Source: a virus (Duplodnaviria; Heunggongvirae; Uroviricota; Caudoviricetes). Taken from it: a DNA stretch of 64,000 nucleotides. The notes under the pieces are model-generated. The model was not told the origin of the DNA and ran no database searches. It worked only from the letters and a program-made list of their open reading frames with translations. Shown one piece after another: positions 8,047 to 21,608 of the stretch; within the stretch, counting starts at the first letter, position 1; every line of letters begins with the position of its first letter. Location: IMG/VR virus record IMGVR_UViG_2700989044_000001, positions 11,683 to 75,682 of that record. One strand, written 5' to 3'. Made by a program: the position numbers and the translations under genes.

Positions 8047-8182
8047 ACTATTTTACTAAGCTATAGGTAATTAGACCTATAGCTTTTTTGTTAGACAATG
8101 GTAATATTATAGAAATTCAAAGATCATGTATTAAATTAACGGAGGTTTAGGCTTCCAAAATATATTTAAGAGGTGAATTTTT

Positions 8183-8929
8183 ATGTACAAAATAGCTATT
8201 TGTGCTGGTCATGGTTTCAACACTCCTGGTAAGAGAACTCCAGATGGTGAAAGAGAATGGAGCTTTAACAATAAGTTAGTTGTTGCTTTCGTTAACACTA
8301 TGAATCAGTATGAGAATGTTACTGTTAAGCGTTATGATGATCCAACGGGTAAAACTGACGTGCCTTTAATTACTCGTACTAATGGGGCAAACGCTTGGGG
8401 AGCAAACATCTACATTTCATTCCACCACAACGCTAATACTGCTAAATGGGGTACTTGGACAGGTGTTGAAACTTTCTACTATCCAGGTTCTACGACTGGA
8501 TTGAACTTAGCTAAAGCTATTCACCCAGCAGTTGTTCAATCTTATGGATTGAAAGATAGAGGCGTTAAGTCTGGAAATCTTCACATCGTTAGAGAAACAA
8601 AAATGCCAGCTATTTTAATCGAAGGTGGATTCATGGATTCTACTATCGATATTAAAAAACTTAGAAGCGACGCTGTATTAAAAGCTGCTGGTGAAAACAT
8701 TGCTCATGCTGTAGCTAAGTACGCTGGTTTAAAGAAAAAATCTTCTACTTCTACTCCTAAACCGCCAACTCCTACTACTCCAAATGCTGCAACTTACACT
8801 GTAGTTAAAGGAGATACTCTGTATGGAATTTCTCAAAAATTTGGAATCAGTGTCGATACTATCAAATCATTAAATGGTTTGAAAACTAATACTATCTCTA
8901 TTGGGCAGGTATTAAAGGTAAAAAAGTAG
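8183..8929 (+). CDS. N-acetylmuramoyl-L-alanine amidase (Amidase_3) with C-terminal LysM domain
   Basis: N-terminus IAICAGHG...PG motif typical of CwlA/Amidase_3; C-terminus YTVVKGDTLYGISQKFGISVDTIKSLNGL is a LysM repeat; RBS AAGAGGTGA. Confidence 0.85.
   Translation: MYKIAICAGHGFNTPGKRTPDGEREWSFNNKLVVAFVNTMNQYENVTVKRYDDPTGKTDVPLITRTNGANAWGANIYISFHHNANTAKWGTWTGVETFYYPGSTTGLNLAKAIHPAVVQSYGLKDRGVKSGNLHIVRETKMPAILIEGGFMDSTIDIKKLRSDAVLKAAGENIAHAVAKYAGLKKKSSTSTPKPPTPTTPNAATYTVVKGDTLYGISQKFGISVDTIKSLNGLKTNTISIGQVLKVKK
8920..8926 (+). other. A_AAA_AAG slippery heptamer (candidate -1 frameshift site) at amidase stop
   Basis: Sequence A AAA AAG in the amidase zero frame immediately before TAG; the -1 frame continues open into the glucosaminidase ORF. 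Confidence 0.5.
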
Positions 8930-9186
8930 AAGATGTAACTGCTGATAGTTTCTATCGAGTTTTTGTTAATGGAAAACAGGTAGGCGCATTTTCAGTTAAA
9001 GAGAATGCTTATGAAGACGGTTGGAAACAATATAATTCTGGAAAAACAGATGCTTATTTAGTAGAACCAAATGGTAGTAAATATACTTTCAACGCTCACC
9101 AATCTGAAAACCCTAACAAAAAACAAGACGAAACTAATTCTACAAAAAACCCTATTTTAGGTAAATCAGTAGTTACATCTAGTCAA

Positions 9187-9852
9187 ATGGTAACTCTTGT
9201 AAAATCAAAAAACCCTAATGCTAAAAATATTGAAGAAATTGCTGAAGCCTTCTTAAAGGTTGGCGAAAAATACGGACTTCGTGGAGATATTGCATTTTGT
9301 CAGTCAATTATCGAAACGGGTTGGTTTAGATTTGATGGCGGTACTGCGGTTACTCCAGATCAACATAACTATTGCGGACTTGGAGTTACGAGTACGGGTA
9401 TTAAAGGAGCTGTATTTGCCACTATTAAAGATGGTGTAACTGCACAAATACAACATCTTTATGCTTATGCTACTAAATCGGCACTACCAGCTGGAGAAAC
9501 TCTATTGGATCCAAGATTCCAATACGTTACAAGAGGTATAGCTCCAAATTGGGAAGATTTAAGTAATAGATGGGCTATGAATGCTAATTATGGAACTCAA
9601 ATCTTGAATATGTATAATCAATTATTACAAGTTCCTGCATCTAATACTTCTCCTGAAAAACCAAATACACCAAAACCTAAAGAAGAAAAAAAGGATGTTC
9701 TTTTTACACATTCAGAAATCAACAATAAACAATATGCTTCTGTCGTAATTGACGGAAAAGGATATATAGCGGTTTCAGATGTTGCAGATTTACTTGATTT
9801 AAAAGTAGTATTTGACAAGGTTACTAAAGAAATTATCTTCATTAAAAAATAA
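9187..9852 (+). CDS. peptidoglycan hydrolase, glucosaminidase-domain (LytD-like); frame open upstream to 8926 without a start codon
   Basis: AFCQSIIETGWF...YCGLG glucosaminidase motifs; same frame is stop-free for 86 codons upstream and encodes a SPOR-like segment (YRVFVNGKQVGAFSVKENA). Confidence 0.7.
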   Translation: MVTLVKSKNPNAKNIEEIAEAFLKVGEKYGLRGDIAFCQSIIETGWFRFDGGTAVTPDQHNYCGLGVTSTGIKGAVFATIKDGVTAQIQHLYAYATKSALPAGETLLDPRFQYVTRGIAPNWEDLSNRWAMNANYGTQILNMYNQLLQVPASNTSPEKPNTPKPKEEKKDVLFTHSEINNKQYASVVIDGKGYIAVSDVADLLDLKVVFDKVTKEIIFIKK

Positions 9853-9879
9853 TCTTTTAGTCAAACAAGTTAAAGAGAG

Positions 9880-10410
9880 GTGGCAATTATGGAACAAGTT
9901 ATTGATTTAATCATACCGTTCATTGCTTTAGCTTTTCTTAGTGTGATGATTGATAAGTTCACTTTGTTTTTAGAGCAAATTGTTCATAAAATCCCACACT
10001 TCCCAGATTACTTTGAATGGTATACCGCTTATGCTGTAGTATTAATTATAAGTACTATGGTTTGTTGGCAGGGTGATTTTAGATTTTTTGACTATTTAAA
10101 TCTTTATTTCCCTGTTTGGTTAGATTATTTTATGAGTGGTTTAGTTATTAGTGGAGGAAGTGCATTTGTTAGAACTCAATTCAGTATGATAGAAGCAATC
10201 CCTTCTACTGTTACTGGCATAGCATCTTCATTTACTAGACTTTTACCAGGTAGAAAAGATAGCAATGTAGATCAATCAAATAACAATTCAACTGCTCCTA
10301 ATAAAAATAGCCAACCTAATGTAACTCCAAACTATACTGAGGAAGAGTATTATCCTCCAGCAACTGAAGAAATAGATACTAACTCAAATCGTTATACTGA
10401 TGATATTTAA
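9880..10410 (+). CDS. membrane protein (holin-like, 3-4 TM segments)
   Basis: Hydrophobic helices, follows lysin genes; RBS AAGAGAGGTGG. Confidence 0.5.
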   Translation: MAIMEQVIDLIIPFIALAFLSVMIDKFTLFLEQIVHKIPHFPDYFEWYTAYAVVLIISTMVCWQGDFRFFDYLNLYFPVWLDYFMSGLVISGGSAFVRTQFSMIEAIPSTVTGIASSFTRLLPGRKDSNVDQSNNNSTAPNKNSQPNVTPNYTEEEYYPPATEEIDTNSNRYTDDI

Positions 10411-10426
10411 ATAAAAGGAGGGAAAA

Positions 10427-10786
10427 ATGATGAATGAATTATTATCTTCAATTTTAAGTGATCTTTTAATTCTTGTAACTACAGTTGGTGCAAGCTATTT
10501 AGTATTATTCCTTAAAAATAAACTTGGTGTTGAAAAGTTAAAGAAAATTCAACAAGAATCTGAATTATTAAGAGAAGTGGTTGAAGCTGGTGTTAGATAT
10601 GCAGAACAACGTTTTAGTAGTGGTGAGAAATTAGATGAAGCTGCTAAATGGATTTCTGAAAGACTTGGCGAAAAAGGAATTAACGCTACTCCTGAAGAAA
10701 TTAACGGTTTAATTGAGTCTACTGTACGTCGTTTTAAAGATGAATTTGGTAATGAATGGGCAAACGCAGTAAAAGATGAAAAATAA
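10427..10786 (+). CDS. holin-like protein (single N-terminal TM, LL-H holin-like architecture)
   Basis: N-terminal TM helix followed by charged C-terminus; RBS AAAGGAGGG; adjacent to lysins. Confidence 0.45.
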   Translation: MMNELLSSILSDLLILVTTVGASYLVLFLKNKLGVEKLKKIQQESELLREVVEAGVRYAEQRFSSGEKLDEAAKWISERLGEKGINATPEEINGLIESTVRRFKDEFGNEWANAVKDEK

Positions 10787-19428: not shown

Positions 19429-20082
19429 ATGTTAGAGAATAAAAATGAGGAAGAATTAATAGCAATAAAAGATAAATACTTAGATGAAGTACGAGATTTA
19501 CAAAGATTAATAGATGAAAAGAGAAAATCAATAAGAGAAATTGATGAACAATTACAAAGAAAACACGTTTGGTATGTCTATGATGTAGTTAGCACTATGT
19601 TAGAGCAATTAGAATTAAACAAGAATAGAATTTCTGATAATTCTTATTGGCTTTTACAAAGAGAAATAAAATCATTGTTATTAACTAATGCTACTGATAG
19701 TAAATTTTATAAACGTGGGAAAATAGTTAAGAATATTTATTTTAATTTCAAAAGCTTAATTGTAATGAAATTGTCAGAATATGATTTAATTACTAAAAGA
19801 TTTACCTATAGTCCTGTTTATAGATTTCAATTTAGTTTTGATGAGTTAAATAATAAAATTGATAGAAAATTCACATCTAATATTTTTTCAAAGCATTCAA
19901 AAAGGTTTTGTGATTTCGTTGTACCAATTGAGAATTTATCAGGTATGAATAAAGAAGTAATTAAATTAACAAAATCAAAGTATGATGATTATAAAGATAT
20001 TATGAATGATATAATATTGGTTACGCAATATATTGAGAATGAAATGGAAGCTAGATTTTTAGCTTGCAAATTGAATCAATAA
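19429..20082 (+). CDS. hypothetical protein
   Basis: ORF abutting previous stop. Confidence 0.4.
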   Translation: MLENKNEEELIAIKDKYLDEVRDLQRLIDEKRKSIREIDEQLQRKHVWYVYDVVSTMLEQLELNKNRISDNSYWLLQREIKSLLLTNATDSKFYKRGKIVKNIYFNFKSLIVMKLSEYDLITKRFTYSPVYRFQFSFDELNNKIDRKFTSNIFSKHSKRFCDFVVPIENLSGMNKEVIKLTKSKYDDYKDIMNDIILVTQYIENEMEARFLACKLNQ

Positions 20083-20094
20083 AAGGGTGATTAA

Positions 20095-20616
20095 ATGGCT
20101 AGAAAAAACATTAAAGTAGATTTTGGTTATCAGGAAGACAATACATTTAAGGGATCTGTTTTTATAGTTGATAAGTTTGAAGATTCTATCAATTGTCATT
20201 TAGAAAGAATTATTAAAACATTAGATGAAAGAGATTTTGAAAAAGTTGTCTTATACCCTTTACATGAAAATACATTAAAAAGAATGAATATAGATGTAAG
20301 TAAAAAATATTTTTCAAGGTTAGATGACTTGGAAAATTTAGTTAGTAATGTTAAAACATATATTCCAGTTAGTATAGATAAATTAGATGGAAAAAGAAAG
20401 AAATACACTCCATTGGATTTTATTTTAAATCACTTAACTGAAAAACATAAAAAACCATATTTTGTTTGTCTATCAAAAGATATTGCTAATAAATTTGCAA
20501 GTTATTCTTCGTTCGATACTTGGATTAAAGAAGTTAGATTAATAATAGCTGAAGATGTTACATTAGCTTTACACAAAAATTTAGAGAAAAATTCAAAAAG
20601 AATTGAATTTATTTGA
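20095..20616 (+). CDS. hypothetical protein
   Basis: ORF after AAAGGGTGA. Confidence 0.4.
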   Translation: MARKNIKVDFGYQEDNTFKGSVFIVDKFEDSINCHLERIIKTLDERDFEKVVLYPLHENTLKRMNIDVSKKYFSRLDDLENLVSNVKTYIPVSIDKLDGKRKKYTPLDFILNHLTEKHKKPYFVCLSKDIANKFASYSSFDTWIKEVRLIIAEDVTLALHKNLEKNSKRIEFI

Positions 20617-20718
20617 AATGGGAATATTTATATTTATTCCCATTCTTTTTTATTTTATTTAAATTTAGTTCACTATATAATAATAATATTAACTATAGGA
20701 GTTGAAAGGAGAATTAAA

Positions 20719-21111
20719 GTGGAATGGTTGAATGAACCGGATTTTCTGGAATGGGATTTTCATAATATGCATTGTTTGATAATAAGAAATGATCTTGGAG
20801 TTCTTTGTGGATATGTAGGTATAAGCAAAGAACACGAATTGTATCAAACTAATTATTGTAAGTTTAAAGTTCACGGAGGTATTTCTTTTACTGGTAATGA
20901 TGTGGCGGGAATGAAAGGAGATTTATTTTATTTTGGATTTGATTGTGCTCGCGCCAGAGATTTAATTCCAAAATTTGAAACATTTAATATTAATTTTATT
21001 GATGATGGAGGGTTTAAAACTTATAGAAATATAGAATACGTAAAAGAACATGTAAAAAATCTTGCATATCAATTGCATTATAGAACTTATATTATTGACG
21101 AGTTGTTGTAG
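20719..21111 (+). CDS. hypothetical protein
   Basis: GTG start after AAGGAG. Confidence 0.4.
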   Translation: MEWLNEPDFLEWDFHNMHCLIIRNDLGVLCGYVGISKEHELYQTNYCKFKVHGGISFTGNDVAGMKGDLFYFGFDCARARDLIPKFETFNINFIDDGGFKTYRNIEYVKEHVKNLAYQLHYRTYIIDELL

Positions 21112-21121
21112 GGGGTATTTT

Positions 21122-21424
21122 ATGTCATCATTCGAACATATTACTATTTGTCCAATATGTCAATCTGAATTAAGCAAACAAATATGGACTGGTGAAGGAT
21201 GGTTAGAAGAACTATATTTAAGGTGTGAGAATAAATGTTTTTATTACAGCTTCTCATATGGAGATACTAGAATTAGTGTTTTTGATAAAGAGGTAGAGTA
21301 TAGTTATAATGAAAAAGATAAGAGTGGTAAAGAAAAAATAGTTGAAAAAATGATTAAATATTGGAAAGAAAATGATAGATATTTAGCTAAGTTGATAAAG
21401 GGGATTAGTGATGAAGAAAGTTGA
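21122..21424 (+). CDS. zinc-ribbon paralog E (YWKENDRYLAK motif)
   Basis: ATG after GGGGGT (ORF-track 21062 start is an overlapping extension); CPICQS...C and IKYWKENDRYLAKLIKG. Confidence 0.5.
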   Translation: MSSFEHITICPICQSELSKQIWTGEGWLEELYLRCENKCFYYSFSYGDTRISVFDKEVEYSYNEKDKSGKEKIVEKMIKYWKENDRYLAKLIKGISDEES

Positions 21425-21608
21425 AGAATATACAGAAATAATGTGGGAAGTAGTATTTTTAGATTCAAAGGGTAAACTAATTGACCTTTGGGGAAACACT
21501 GAAAATGAAGATGAAATAGAACTTTTAAAAGAAAGAGCTATGAAAAAGGGGTATGATTGTATGGAAGTTAGTAAAATAACAAAAGAAGCAAAGAGATATA
21601 AATTATAA
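21408..21608 (+). CDS. hypothetical protein
   Basis: ORF only. Confidence 0.35.
   Translation: MMKKVEEYTEIMWEVVFLDSKGKLIDLWGNTENEDEIELLKERAMKKGYDCMEVSKITKEAKRYKL

What the first reader, a model, noticed from the sequence alone, without database searches (positions are those of the whole stretch)
8183..9852. Canonical A_AAA_AAG slippery site at the amidase stop could fuse amidase-LysM to a SPOR-like linker and glucosaminidase (-1 frameshift, transcriptional slippage or homopolymer error)
The amidase-LysM ORF ends ...GTA AAA AAG TAG (8918-8929). The -1 frame from 8926 (VEDVTADSFYRVFVNGKQVGAFSVKENAYEDGW...) is stop-free for 86 codons and contains no ATG, GTG or TTG start. It runs straight into the glucosaminidase ORF annotated from 9187. 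This upstream stretch looks like a real SPOR/peptidoglycan-binding-like segment. The heptamer A AAA AAG in the zero frame (8920-8926) is the classic dnaX-type -1 slippery sequence. A weak hairpin GATAG-TTT-CTATC lies 17 nt downstream. The result would be a ~555-aa amidase-LysM-SPOR-glucosaminidase enzyme, alongside the 248-aa amidase-LysM alone, giving two lysin isoforms from one locus. Alternatively, the A6 run may be a sequencing error (A7 would fuse the frames), or the gene may be a recent pseudogenisation.
Basis: partly seen in the sequence, partly recalled or inferred. Interest (0 to 1): 0.7.

Follow-up and report, generated by a model that had tools for sequence, protein, structure and literature searches.

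The report
Conserved frameshift site in phage G endolysin
The cell-wall-degrading enzyme gene of the giant Bacillus phage G is split into two reading frames at a classic slippery sequence. The same split occurs in five related phages, so it looks like a deliberate way of making a short and a long enzyme from one gene, and GenBank already annotates it that way.

Summary
The window is Bacillus phage G, and the finding covers gp22/gp23. In detail: gp22 (Amidase_3 + LysM, 248 aa) ends GTA AAA AAG TAG. The -1 frame runs on with no stop and no start codon into a SPOR-like segment, a glucosaminidase domain and a C-terminal domain.

The predicted 556-aa fusion (…KVKK|VEDV…) is identical to GenBank AEO93294.1 / YP_009015333.1, a two-piece joined CDS. 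The call is therefore already public, though I found no paper that describes or tests it.

- Five independent metagenomic relatives, syntenic with phage G (capsid protein 94-98% identical, flanking genes 57-82%), have the same split. Each has A_AAA_AAG, then a stop codon directly after it, then an intact -1 ORF.
- The A-run is A6 in three relatives and A9 in two.
- Two further relatives carry a single fused ORF.
- ATG 9187 has no Shine-Dalgarno sequence.
- Phage G also has an SD-like GGGCAGGU 9 nt upstream of the heptamer and an unusually stable stem-loop just downstream.

A sequencing error, a pseudogene and independent initiation of ORF2 are all effectively excluded. The best explanation is dnaX-type programmed -1 ribosomal frameshifting. 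Transcriptional slippage is the main rival, especially in the A9 relatives. The long protein has never been detected.

The parts
8183..8929 (+). gp22, the zero-frame product (248 aa). Amidase_3 domain at nt 8192-8716, LysM at nt 8795-8923, stop TAG at 8927-8929.
   Evidence: ORF list. Pfam Amidase_3 E 2.8e-35 and LysM E 2.8e-17. Annotated as gp22/endolysin in JN638751 and NC_023719. Strong SD before ATG 8183 (-10.1 kcal/mol).
8903..8910 (+). SD-like element GGGCAGGU, 9 nt upstream of the heptamer. It is built from two rare codons, GGG and CAG.
   Evidence: Duplex with the 16S 3' end is -7.8 kcal/mol, in the top 4.8% of 20-nt windows. CAG is 9.5% of Gln codons and GGG 8% of Gly codons in the window. 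CAG-GTA is present in all four A6 loci, while all five other loci have CAA.
8920..8926 (+). Slippery heptamer A_AAA_AAG in the zero-frame phase. The A6 run is 8920-8925.
   Evidence: Sequence. Conserved together with the adjacent stop in 6 of 6 split loci.
8927..8929 (+). Zero-frame stop codon TAG directly 3' of the heptamer. In the -1 frame it overlaps the Val codon GTA (8926-8928).
   Evidence: TAG in five split loci and TAA in one. Phage G's tail-chaperone shift site has the same layout, A_AAA_AAC TAG.
8929..8993 (+). Predicted extended three-helix stem-loop, starting 2 nt after the heptamer. Candidate 3' stimulator.
   Evidence: MFE -19.8 kcal/mol. z -3.35 with 0 of 200 shuffles as stable, z about -3.8 in my own shuffles. 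Top 1.2% of 74-nt windows in the window. 2% of synonymous-codon resamples are as stable. Fused relatives lack it (z +0.3 and -0.1).
8926..9852 (+). The -1-frame coding part of gp23 (308 codons plus stop). SPOR-like domain at nt 8944-9114, Pro/Lys-rich linker, Glucosaminidase (GH73) domain at nt 9244-9624, C-terminal domain of about 52 aa at nt 9694-9849.
   Evidence: Translation. Pfam Glucosaminidase E 3.9e-10. Continuous alignment with single-ORF homologs P0001 and P0002 through the junction. hhalign of the linker domain against SPOR-type repeats, probability 84%. Weak match of the C-terminal domain to the C-terminal part of P0085, a protein that also carries a PF07833 hit. The exact fusion equals AEO93294.1.
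9187..9189 (+). ATG that gene callers take as the ORF2 start. It is most likely a conserved internal Met, not an initiation site.
   Evidence: SD duplex energy 0.0 kcal/mol, against a median of -9.1 for 51 ORFs in the window. The Met lies in the conserved motif (S/E)QM(V/I)xF(V)K of fused homologs.
9889..10786 (+). Downstream lysis-cassette partners: gp24 (membrane protein, 9889-10410) and gp25 (holin, 10430-10786). They give the context showing that gp22/23 is the endolysin.
   Evidence: Annotation. The gp25 homologs in relatives carry Pfam Phage_holin_6_1. Synteny is conserved.

Best explanation
gp22/gp23 of phage G is one endolysin gene with a conserved programmed recoding site.

Most ribosomes translate 8183-8929 and stop at TAG. 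This gives gp22, a 27-kDa Amidase_3-LysM lysin.

A fraction of ribosomes slip back one nucleotide while the two tRNA-Lys molecules sit on A_AAA_AAG (8920-8926). They then read GTA GAA GAT… to 9852. This gives gp23, a 556-aa protein of about 61 kDa that adds a SPOR-like domain, a GH73 glucosaminidase and a small C-terminal domain to the same N-terminus.

Three elements are candidates for raising the shift frequency, as in E. coli dnaX:
- the adjacent zero-frame stop codon;
- the SD-like GGGCAGGU 9 nt upstream;
- the 8929-8993 stem-loop.

The result would be a fixed ratio of a mono-functional to a bi-functional peptidoglycan hydrolase from one promoter and one ribosome-binding site.

Shown here:
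- the sequence configuration;
- coding homology across the junction;
- absence of an independent start for ORF2;
- conservation of the split in six independent loci;
- identity of the fusion with the GenBank joined CDS.

Inferred:
- that the shift is ribosomal rather than transcriptional;
- that the SD-like element and the stem-loop act as stimulators;
- the shift efficiency;
- the biological role of the two isoforms.
For: 1. Identity of the locus. The window is phage G (100% identity). The record annotates gene 23 as a two-piece joined CDS over 8183-9852, next to gene 22. My constructed fusion is an exact match to AEO93294.1 / YP_009015333.1.

2. Coding continuity. Single-ORF homologs P0001 (563 aa, 59% identity, 100% coverage) and P0002 (588 aa, 55%) align without interruption across the junction and through the 87 codons upstream of ATG 9187.

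3. Conservation of the split. L102, L103, L104, L105 and L108 are phage-G-like loci from five different sequencing projects. Four have the same neighbours (MCP 94-98% identical where the contig reaches it; other neighbours 57-82%). L108 is a 1-kb contig with no informative flanks. All end ORF1 with A_AAA_AAG plus TAG or TAA, and all continue in the -1 frame with an intact ORF2. That frame is open only 16-40 nt upstream of the stop in the four where I measured it. A-run lengths are A6 (three relatives plus phage G) and A9 (two relatives), which differ by three and so preserve the -1 relation.

4. No independent start. ATG 9187 has an SD energy of 0.0, against a median of -9.1 kcal/mol for ORFs in the window. 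There is no ATG, GTG or TTG in 8926-9186.

5. Candidate stimulators. The upstream SD-like duplex is -7.8 kcal/mol (top 4.8%) at dnaX-like spacing. The downstream structure is in the top 1.2% of windows and at 2% of synonymous resamples. Three of six split loci have a downstream z of -3.8 or lower, against 2% of background windows, and 0 of 3 unsplit relatives do. L105 has a perfect 12-bp hairpin 5 nt after the heptamer (z -6).

6. Precedent in the same genome. The tail-chaperone pair gp181/182 uses A_AAA_AAC TAG with the same layout.

7. tRNA supply. The phage encodes no tRNA-Lys, so Lys decoding depends on the host (PMC12484599).

8. Against a sequencing error. Buchan et al. 2025 report four re-sequenced phage G genomes at more than 500x. 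They still list ps604/gp22 and ps605/gp23 as separate ORFs and name no SNP at this locus in the text.
Against: - No protein evidence for the long form. Particle LC-MS/MS in Buchan et al. 2025 detected gp22 but not gp23. An endolysin is not expected in virions, and I could not see which database sequences were searched.
- The candidate stimulators are not universal. L103 and L108 show no significant downstream structure (z +0.9 and -0.4). The A9 loci lack the SD-like element.
- In phage G the stem starts only 2 nt after the heptamer, shorter than the 5-9 nt typical of known stimulators. In L104 it starts about 25 nt away.
- The fold window length was chosen after trying five windows.
- Deleting one A from an A7G tract produces A_AAA_AAG plus TAG automatically. 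The heptamer in phage G alone would therefore not show design; only its conservation does.
- In-frame A_AAA_AAG occurs five more times in the window's genes, so the heptamer alone is evidently tolerated.
- I did not check whether the host has a single tRNA-Lys(UUU).
Confidence: 0.72

Rival explanations
1. The recoding is transcriptional rather than ribosomal. RNA polymerase stutters on the A-run and adds one A, which puts ORF2 in frame in a subset of mRNAs.
For: Two relatives (L102, L103) have A9 tracts and L003 has A10. These are the lengths used for programmed transcriptional slippage, for example in Thermus dnaX (reviewed in PMC5009743). The A9 loci lack the SD-like element, and L103 lacks a downstream structure, as expected if no ribosomal stimulators are needed. 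In L003 both alternative frames terminate immediately after the run.
Against: Phage G, L104, L105 and L108 have only A6, which from general knowledge is too short for efficient polymerase slippage. The terminal G of the heptamer and the adjacent stop are conserved in 6 of 6 loci, and slippage has no need for either. The A6 loci carry SD-like elements, and G, L105 and more weakly L104 also have a 3' structure; these make sense only for ribosomes.
Confidence: 0.15
2. The split is a non-programmed lesion. In this view ORF2 is silent or decaying, or the tract is a DNA-level phase-variable switch with only a fused subpopulation expressing the long form.
For: Fused versions exist in relatives, L003 with A10 and L004 with no run. 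Homopolymer tracts mutate easily. gp23 was not detected in particle proteomics.
Against: ORF2 is stop-free over the full 277-338 codons in the five loci that span it, and over the 46 codons held in L108, in genomes of about 30% GC. It is 57-78% identical between loci, which requires purifying selection and therefore expression. The -1 state occurs in both ORF1 clades. Tract lengths differ by exactly 3. The re-sequenced phage G genomes named no SNP at this locus in the text.
Confidence: 0.05
3. ORF2 is a separate gene that starts at ATG 9187 and gives a 221-aa stand-alone glucosaminidase. This is how automatic gene callers treat it, as did the 2025 paper.
For: Gene callers output 224-244-aa proteins starting at the equivalent Met in the relatives (P0121-P0124). 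Stand-alone glucosaminidase endolysins exist, for example in phage Sophrita.
Against: There is no SD at 9187 (0.0 kcal/mol; only 6% of the window's ORF starts are that weak). The 87 codons upstream are stop-free and homologous to coding sequence in fused relatives, including a conserved domain of about 57 aa. The Met is an internal conserved residue of the family. The ORF2 frame closes 16-40 nt upstream of the ORF1 stop in every locus measured, which is the signature of an overlap used for frameshifting.
Confidence: 0.04
4. The split is a sequencing or assembly error in the phage G record, and the true tract is A7.
For: Homopolymers are error-prone, and A7 would restore a single ORF.
Against: Five other assemblies from unrelated projects show the same -1 state. 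The independent re-sequencing of phage G, with four genomes reported at more than 500x, kept two ORFs. The depositors themselves chose to annotate a join rather than correct the sequence.
Confidence: 0.01

Closest known systems
E. coli dnaX tau/gamma programmed -1 frameshift (A_AAA_AAG, SD-like element 10 nt upstream, stem-loop downstream)
   Same: Identical heptamer. SD-like element at a comparable distance (9 nt). A stable 3' stem-loop. Two products share an N-terminus, presumably at a set ratio. Dependence on weak AAG decoding by tRNA-Lys (PMC5009743).
   Different: In dnaX the shifted ribosome terminates early and makes the shorter product. Here the unshifted ribosome terminates and the shift makes the longer product. 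Here the stop codon abuts the heptamer. The stem starts 2 nt after the site instead of about 6. The stimulators are predicted, not tested, and are not present in all relatives.
Tail assembly chaperone G/GT-type frameshift of tailed phages, including phage G's own gp181/gp182
   Same: The layout is the same. The short product ends at, or right after, the slippery heptamer and the long product is extended in the -1 frame. Phage G gp181 ends A_AAA_AAC TAG. Both are annotated as joined CDSs in the same record.
   Different: The proteins are unrelated in function: an assembly chaperone against a peptidoglycan hydrolase. The chaperone frameshift is near-universal and experimentally proven in lambda. 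The lysin frameshift is restricted, as far as seen here, to phage-G-like phages and is untested.
Programmed transcriptional slippage on A9 tracts (Thermus thermophilus dnaX, IS elements)
   Same: Relatives L102 and L103 carry A9 at the homologous position and L003 carries A10.
   Different: Phage G has only A6. The heptamer phase, the terminal G and the adjacent stop are conserved, which slippage does not require.
Single-ORF Amidase_3 - LysM/SPOR - Glucosaminidase lysins (hundreds in metagenomes, e.g. P0001-P0011; also fused in G-like loci L003 and L004)
   Same: Same domain order and clear homology over the full 556 aa.
   Different: They are encoded in one frame. Phage G and five relatives need recoding to make the full-length form, and they additionally make the amidase-LysM part alone.
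Endolysin genes that give two products by internal translation initiation (e.g. mycobacteriophage Ms6 lysA, PMC3111421; from memory also Lys170, CD27L, CTP1L)
   Same: One lysin gene gives two isoforms.
   Different: Those isoforms share the C-terminus and arise by a second start. Here they share the N-terminal catalytic and LysM part and differ by a C-terminal extension that carries a second catalytic domain, produced by frameshifting.

Membership tests
Programmed -1 ribosomal frameshift site (dnaX / IS911 type) | X_XXY_YYZ heptamer in the zero-frame phase at the frame junction | tested here: met
   A_AAA_AAG at 8920-8926 in phase. The same heptamer is present in all five relatives with a split gene.
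Programmed -1 ribosomal frameshift site (dnaX / IS911 type) | The -1 ORF overlaps the zero-frame ORF end, is coding, and has no initiation signal of its own | tested here: met
   The -1 frame is open from 8890. There is no ATG, GTG or TTG before 9187. SD energy at 9187 is 0.0 against a median of -9.1 kcal/mol. Homology to fused proteins runs across the junction.
Programmed -1 ribosomal frameshift site (dnaX / IS911 type) | Conservation of the shift site and frame arrangement among diverged homologs | tested here: met
   Six independent loci have the arrangement. Pairwise identity across the seven loci compared (five split, two fused) is 49-80% for ORF1 and 55-78% for ORF2.
Programmed -1 ribosomal frameshift site (dnaX / IS911 type) | Stimulatory elements: an upstream SD-like sequence and/or a 3' RNA structure at 5-9 nt | tested here: inconclusive
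   In phage G the SD-like duplex is -7.8 kcal/mol, 9 nt upstream, and the stem-loop is -19.8 kcal/mol (z about -3.4 to -3.9) but with a 2-nt spacer. L105 has a textbook hairpin with a 5-nt spacer. L103 and L108 have none.
Programmed -1 ribosomal frameshift site (dnaX / IS911 type) | Detection of the trans-frame protein | not testable with these tools
   The only published data are particle proteomics, where gp22 was detected and gp23 was not (PMC12484599).
Programmed transcriptional slippage site | Homopolymer run long enough for polymerase realignment (about 8-9 or more A/T) | tested here: not met
   Phage G has A6. The feature is met in relatives L102 and L103 (A9) and L003 (A10).
Bifunctional Amidase_3 + Glucosaminidase (GH73) endolysin | Both catalytic domains recognised by their family profiles | tested here: met
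   Amidase_3 at 122 bits (cut-off 27). Glucosaminidase at 40.9 bits (cut-off 30.2).
Bifunctional Amidase_3 + Glucosaminidase (GH73) endolysin | Both domains on one polypeptide | tested here: inconclusive
   This holds only through recoding. It is annotated so in GenBank. Fused single-ORF homologs exist. The phage G long protein has never been observed.
Bifunctional Amidase_3 + Glucosaminidase (GH73) endolysin | Placement in a lysis cassette with a holin | tested here: met
   gp25 homologs carry Phage_holin_6_1 two genes downstream, in conserved synteny.
SPOR domain (PF05036) | Match to the SPOR profile | tested here: inconclusive
   hmmscan at E up to 10 gives no SPOR hit. A profile-profile comparison aligns 38 columns sharing the YRV…Q(V/I)GAF…NA motif with the 'LYRVRKSW…QIGAF' repeats. 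Those repeats occupy the same position in homologs that carry precomputed PF05036 hits. Probability 84%, E 7e-6.
Pseudogene / sequencing artefact | Disrupted frame that is not conserved in relatives, or a downstream part that is decaying | tested here: not met
   The same disruption is present in six loci. ORF2 is intact wherever sequence is held. Re-sequencing kept two ORFs.

The most novel reading that the evidence does not exclude
Phage-G-like jumbo phages keep a recoding switch at the LysM/SPOR boundary of their endolysin, and it exists in two interchangeable mechanistic forms. One form is an A6 heptamer with an SD-like element, often with a 3' hairpin, which would work by ribosomal -1 frameshifting. 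The other is an A9/A10 tract, which would work by transcriptional slippage, with A10 making the fused form the default.

This would parallel the E. coli and Thermus solutions for dnaX, but within one gene lineage. Its purpose would be to set the ratio of a small amidase-LysM lysin to a large bifunctional amidase-glucosaminidase, possibly acting together. To my knowledge, and in the literature I could search, it would be the first described case of programmed frameshifting in an endolysin gene.
Probability: 0.3. Interest if true: 0.55.

Novelty: already known. Interest (0 to 1): 0.33.

Why it matters
Known programmed frameshifts in tailed phages lie almost entirely in structural and assembly genes: tail chaperones, capsid proteins and tail proteins. 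A conserved frameshift inside an endolysin would be a different use of recoding. It would control the ratio of a one-enzyme lysin to a two-enzyme lysin that share the same N-terminus.

This has practical consequences:
- For annotation: automatic gene callers, and the 2025 phage G paper, treat gp23 as a separate glucosaminidase of about 220 aa. That drops 87 codons and the real architecture.
- For proteomics: searches against the truncated ORF can miss the diagnostic peptides.
- For enzyme engineering: the natural long form is a ready-made bifunctional lysin.

The set of relatives with A6, A9 and A10 tracts, and one with no run, offers a natural experiment on how ribosomal and transcriptional slippage substitute for each other.

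The phage G site itself is not a discovery, because GenBank has carried the joined CDS since the genome was deposited.

Tried and rejected
Folded alone, or in 36-49-nt windows, it is no better than shuffles. Rejected as a stimulator.
- **IMG/VR and JGI metagenome scans with the fusion alignment.** These returned 96 loci. My tblastn frame analysis found no further split loci among them. The useful relatives came instead from exact-protein look-ups of ORF2-like and ORF1-like hits.
- **L053.** It looked like a second kind of split, but it has in-frame TAA and TAG codons inside conserved sequence. It is either a recoded or a degraded gene and is not comparable.
- **Pfam on the linker and the C-terminal domain alone.** No usable hit.
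- **Literature.** I found no paper that describes a frameshift in gp22/23 or in any endolysin. The Gonzalez et al. 2020 phage G proteomics paper is not held. Supplementary tables of Buchan et al. 2025 are not held, so I could not see ps605's coordinates or the indel table.
- **Reinitiation after the TAG.** No start codon exists in the -1 frame between 8890 and 9186.
- **Read-through of TAG.** The zero frame hits TAA three codons later, so read-through cannot give the fusion.
- **The +1 frame.** It stops after five codons.
- **Second in-frame A_AAA_AAG at 9687.** Not conserved in the relatives, so treated as chance.
Full report
**What the window is.** Region 8100-9960 is 100% identical to Bacillus phage G (JN638751 / NC_023719, Donellivirus gee). 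Window coordinate = record coordinate - 11682. The finding covers genes 22 and 23.

**Checking the observation.**
- ORF1 runs 8183-8929 and ends GTA AAA AAG TAG.
- A_AAA_AAG occupies 8920-8926 in the X_XXY_YYZ phase.
- The -1 frame is open from 8890 to 9852.
- There is no ATG, GTG or TTG between 8926 and 9186, and ATG 9187 is in that frame.
- Pfam finds Amidase_3 and LysM in ORF1 and Glucosaminidase in ORF2.

Two details need correction. The fusion is 556 aa.

**It is already annotated.** Both the GenBank and RefSeq records carry gene 23 as a CDS joined from two pieces over 19865-21534 (window 8183-9852), beside gene 22 at 19865-20611. The fusion I built by a -1 shift (…GQVLKVKK|VEDVTADSFYRV…) is found by exact look-up as AEO93294.1 / YP_009015333.1 / UniRef100_G3MB92. 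The depositors annotated the tail-chaperone pair gp181/182 the same way. That site reads A_AAA_AAC TAG, the same design of heptamer plus abutting stop.

I found no paper that describes or tests the lysin frameshift.
- The 2025 multi-omics paper on phage G treats ps604/gp22 and ps605/gp23 as two 'similar' endolysins. It reports gp22, but not gp23, in particle proteomics (PMC12484599).
- The 2016 recoding review has no endolysin, amidase or peptidoglycan case in the text held.
- Full-text searches for endolysin with frameshifting or slippage returned only genome papers whose frameshifts concern other genes.

**Is the -1 segment really coding, and part of the same protein?** Yes. A search with the fusion found many single-ORF proteins of 550-690 aa with Amidase_3, LysM and/or SPOR, and Glucosaminidase. 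The two closest are P0001 (59% identity, 100% coverage) and P0002 (55%). They align without a break through the junction and the 87 codons upstream of ATG 9187. That stretch includes a conserved domain of about 57 aa, (D)SFYRVFVxGKQVGAFSV…EGWKQYN…KY.F.

That domain aligns by profile-profile comparison with the 'LYRVRKSW…QIGAF' repeats found at the same position in homologs that carry Pfam SPOR hits. The probability is 84% and E is 7e-6. Pfam itself gives no SPOR hit. 'SPOR-like' is therefore reasonable but not proven.

The Met at 9187 sits in a conserved internal motif. It has no Shine-Dalgarno sequence: 0.0 kcal/mol, against a median of -9.1 for 51 ORFs in the window, -10.1 for gp22 and -12.7 for gp24.

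**The decisive comparison.** The best ORF2-only hits (P0121-P0124, 224-244 aa) and one ORF1-only hit (P0232) come from contigs of five unrelated sequencing projects. Four of the five have the same neighbours as phage G. L108 is a 1-kb contig with no informative flanks.
- gp21-like protein: 57-65% identity.
- gp24-like protein: 60-82%.
- Holin: 60-71%.
- Decoration protein: 64-71%.
- Major capsid protein: 94-98%.

In all five, ORF1 ends with A_AAA_AAG followed directly by a stop. ORF2 continues in the -1 frame, which opens only 16-40 nt upstream of that stop in the four loci where I measured it, and is intact.

| Locus | End of ORF1 | A-run |
|---|---|---|
| L104, L105, L108 | …CAG GTA TTx xxx GTA AAA AAG TAG | A6 |
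| L102, L103 | …GTA AAA AAA AAG TAA / TAG | A9 |

A6 and A9 differ by three, so the -1 relation is preserved.

Three further syntenic relatives lack the split.
- L003 (P0001) has GTA AAA AAA AAA GTA, an A10 run, fused in frame.
- L004 (P0002) is fused with no A-run.
- L005 (P0012) has no glucosaminidase. It joins the same C-terminal domain of about 50 aa directly to amidase-LysM.

ORF1 proteins form two clades, {G, L104, L105, L102} and {L103, L003, L004}. The split occurs in both.

This excludes a sequencing error. It also excludes a recent pseudogene: ORF2 is stop-free over 277-338 codons in genomes of about 30% GC, and 55-78% identical between loci.

**One caution about the heptamer.** Deleting one A from an in-frame A7-G-TAG context creates A_AAA_AAG plus TAG automatically. 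In-frame A_AAA_AAG also occurs six times in about 44 kb of coding sequence here. The heptamer in phage G alone would therefore not show design. Its conservation does.

**Mechanism.** Three features in phage G resemble the dnaX cassette.

1. *Upstream SD-like element.* GGGCAGGU (8903-8910) pairs with the 16S 3' end at -7.8 kcal/mol, in the top 4.8% of 20-nt windows, and lies 9 nt upstream of the heptamer. It is made of the rare codons GGG (8% of Gly codons) and CAG (9.5% of Gln codons). All four A6 loci use CAG-GTA here, and all five other loci use CAA. The A6 loci are related to each other, so this is suggestive only.

2. *Downstream stem-loop.* The 8929-8993 stem-loop has these measures:
   - MFE -19.8 kcal/mol, z -3.35, 0 of 200 shuffles as stable;
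   - top 1.2% of 9133 windows of 74 nt in this 64-kb window;
   - 2% of synonymous-codon resamples are as stable.

   The homologous stretch in the fused L003 and L004 is unremarkable (-8 and -10 kcal/mol). Across loci the 74-nt z-scores are as follows:

| Group | Locus | z |
|---|---|---|
| Split | G | -3.8 |
| Split | L102 | -3.9 |
| Split | L105 | -5.8 |
| Split | L104 | -2.8 |
| Split | L103 | +0.9 |
| Split | L108 | -0.4 |
| Fused | L003 | +0.3 |
| Fused | L004 | -0.1 |
| No glucosaminidase | L005 | -0.6 |

   A z of -3.8 or lower occurs in 2% of background windows. L105 has a perfect 12-bp hairpin with a 5-nt spacer.

3. *Adjacent stop.* The zero-frame stop directly follows the heptamer.

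Weak points:
- The phage G stem starts only 2 nt after the heptamer.
- Two split loci show no structure.
- The A9 loci lack the SD-like element.
- The 74-nt fold length was chosen after trying several.

Transcriptional slippage is a serious alternative for the A9 and A10 relatives and a minor one for A6. Other routes are excluded:
- Read-through of TAG hits TAA three codons later.
- The +1 frame stops after five codons.
- There is no start codon for reinitiation.

The phage encodes no tRNA-Lys, so the shift depends on the host's lysine tRNA. I did not examine that tRNA.

**What it probably does.** The gene lies in a lysis cassette, two genes upstream of the holin gp25. The zero-frame product is a complete amidase-LysM lysin. 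The shifted product adds a second wall-binding module, a GH73 glucosaminidase that cuts the glycan strand, and a C-terminal domain. That C-terminal domain is kept in all relatives, even in L005, which lacks GH73. It weakly matches the C-terminal region of P0085, a protein that also carries a PF07833 (Cu_amine_oxidN1) hit. A fixed ratio of short to long form is the expected outcome. The ratio and its purpose are unknown, and the long form has not been observed.

**Verdict.** The feature is real and is more than chance. The phage G site itself is already in GenBank as a joined CDS, so it is not new. Two things are new here: the comparative proof that the split is conserved, and the finding that the tract exists in A6, A9 and A10 forms. 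It is a standard kind of recoding in an unusual gene class. Interest is moderate to low.

Noticed in passing
L107 3283-3292 (NC_023719 111282-111291): Phage G's tail assembly chaperone pair gp181/gp182 is also a joined CDS. It shifts at A_AAA_AAC followed directly by TAG, the same heptamer-plus-stop design as gp22/23.
   Followed up: partly
L003 962-971: The phage-G-like contig from SRR14585992 has an A10 run at the homologous junction, which puts amidase-LysM and glucosaminidase in one frame. Both alternative frames stop immediately after the run. An A10 run would be expected to be prone to slippage, and it could also be an assembly miscount of A9.
   Followed up: partly
L005 2779-3753: A syntenic relative's endolysin (P0012, 75% identical to gp22) has no SPOR-like or glucosaminidase part. 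It joins the same C-terminal domain of about 50 aa directly, in frame, after LysM. This domain therefore seems to be the conserved end of the long lysin form.
   Followed up: partly
window 9687-9693; L105 1407-1413: A second in-frame A_AAA_AAG lies at the boundary just before the C-terminal domain of ORF2 (…EEKK|DVLF…). A -1 shift there would end after 11 codons and drop that domain. The same heptamer is present in L105 but not in L102, L103 or L104.
   Followed up: partly
L053 362-364 and 509-511 (Ga0153942_1009060): A metagenomic SPOR-glucosaminidase homolog has an in-frame TAA between the SPOR repeats and the glucosaminidase. It also has an in-frame TAG at a conserved position (…LIG*RYG, against KVGEKYG in phage G). 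This suggests either stop-codon reassignment or a decayed gene.
   Followed up: partly
window 9880-9891: The mechanical ORF list starts gp24 at GTG 9880. The record starts it at ATG 9889, which has a strong SD (GAGAGGTGG, about -12.7 kcal/mol). The annotated start is the better one.
   Followed up: yes
P0236 (260 aa, contig of 1153 nt): An amidase 77% identical to gp22 is joined in frame directly to the SPOR-like 'YFRLFVNNKQVGAY…EGWKLYNSGK' domain with no LysM in between. The protein probably continues beyond what this short contig holds. It is another shuffle of the same modules.
   Followed up: no
window 8183-8929 (literature): Buchan et al. 2025 report gp22 and the holin gp25 in LC-MS/MS of purified phage G particles. 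That is unexpected for lysis proteins and may be carry-over from the lysate. Their ORF list treats gp23 as a separate ORF, not as the joined CDS of the GenBank record.
   Followed up: no
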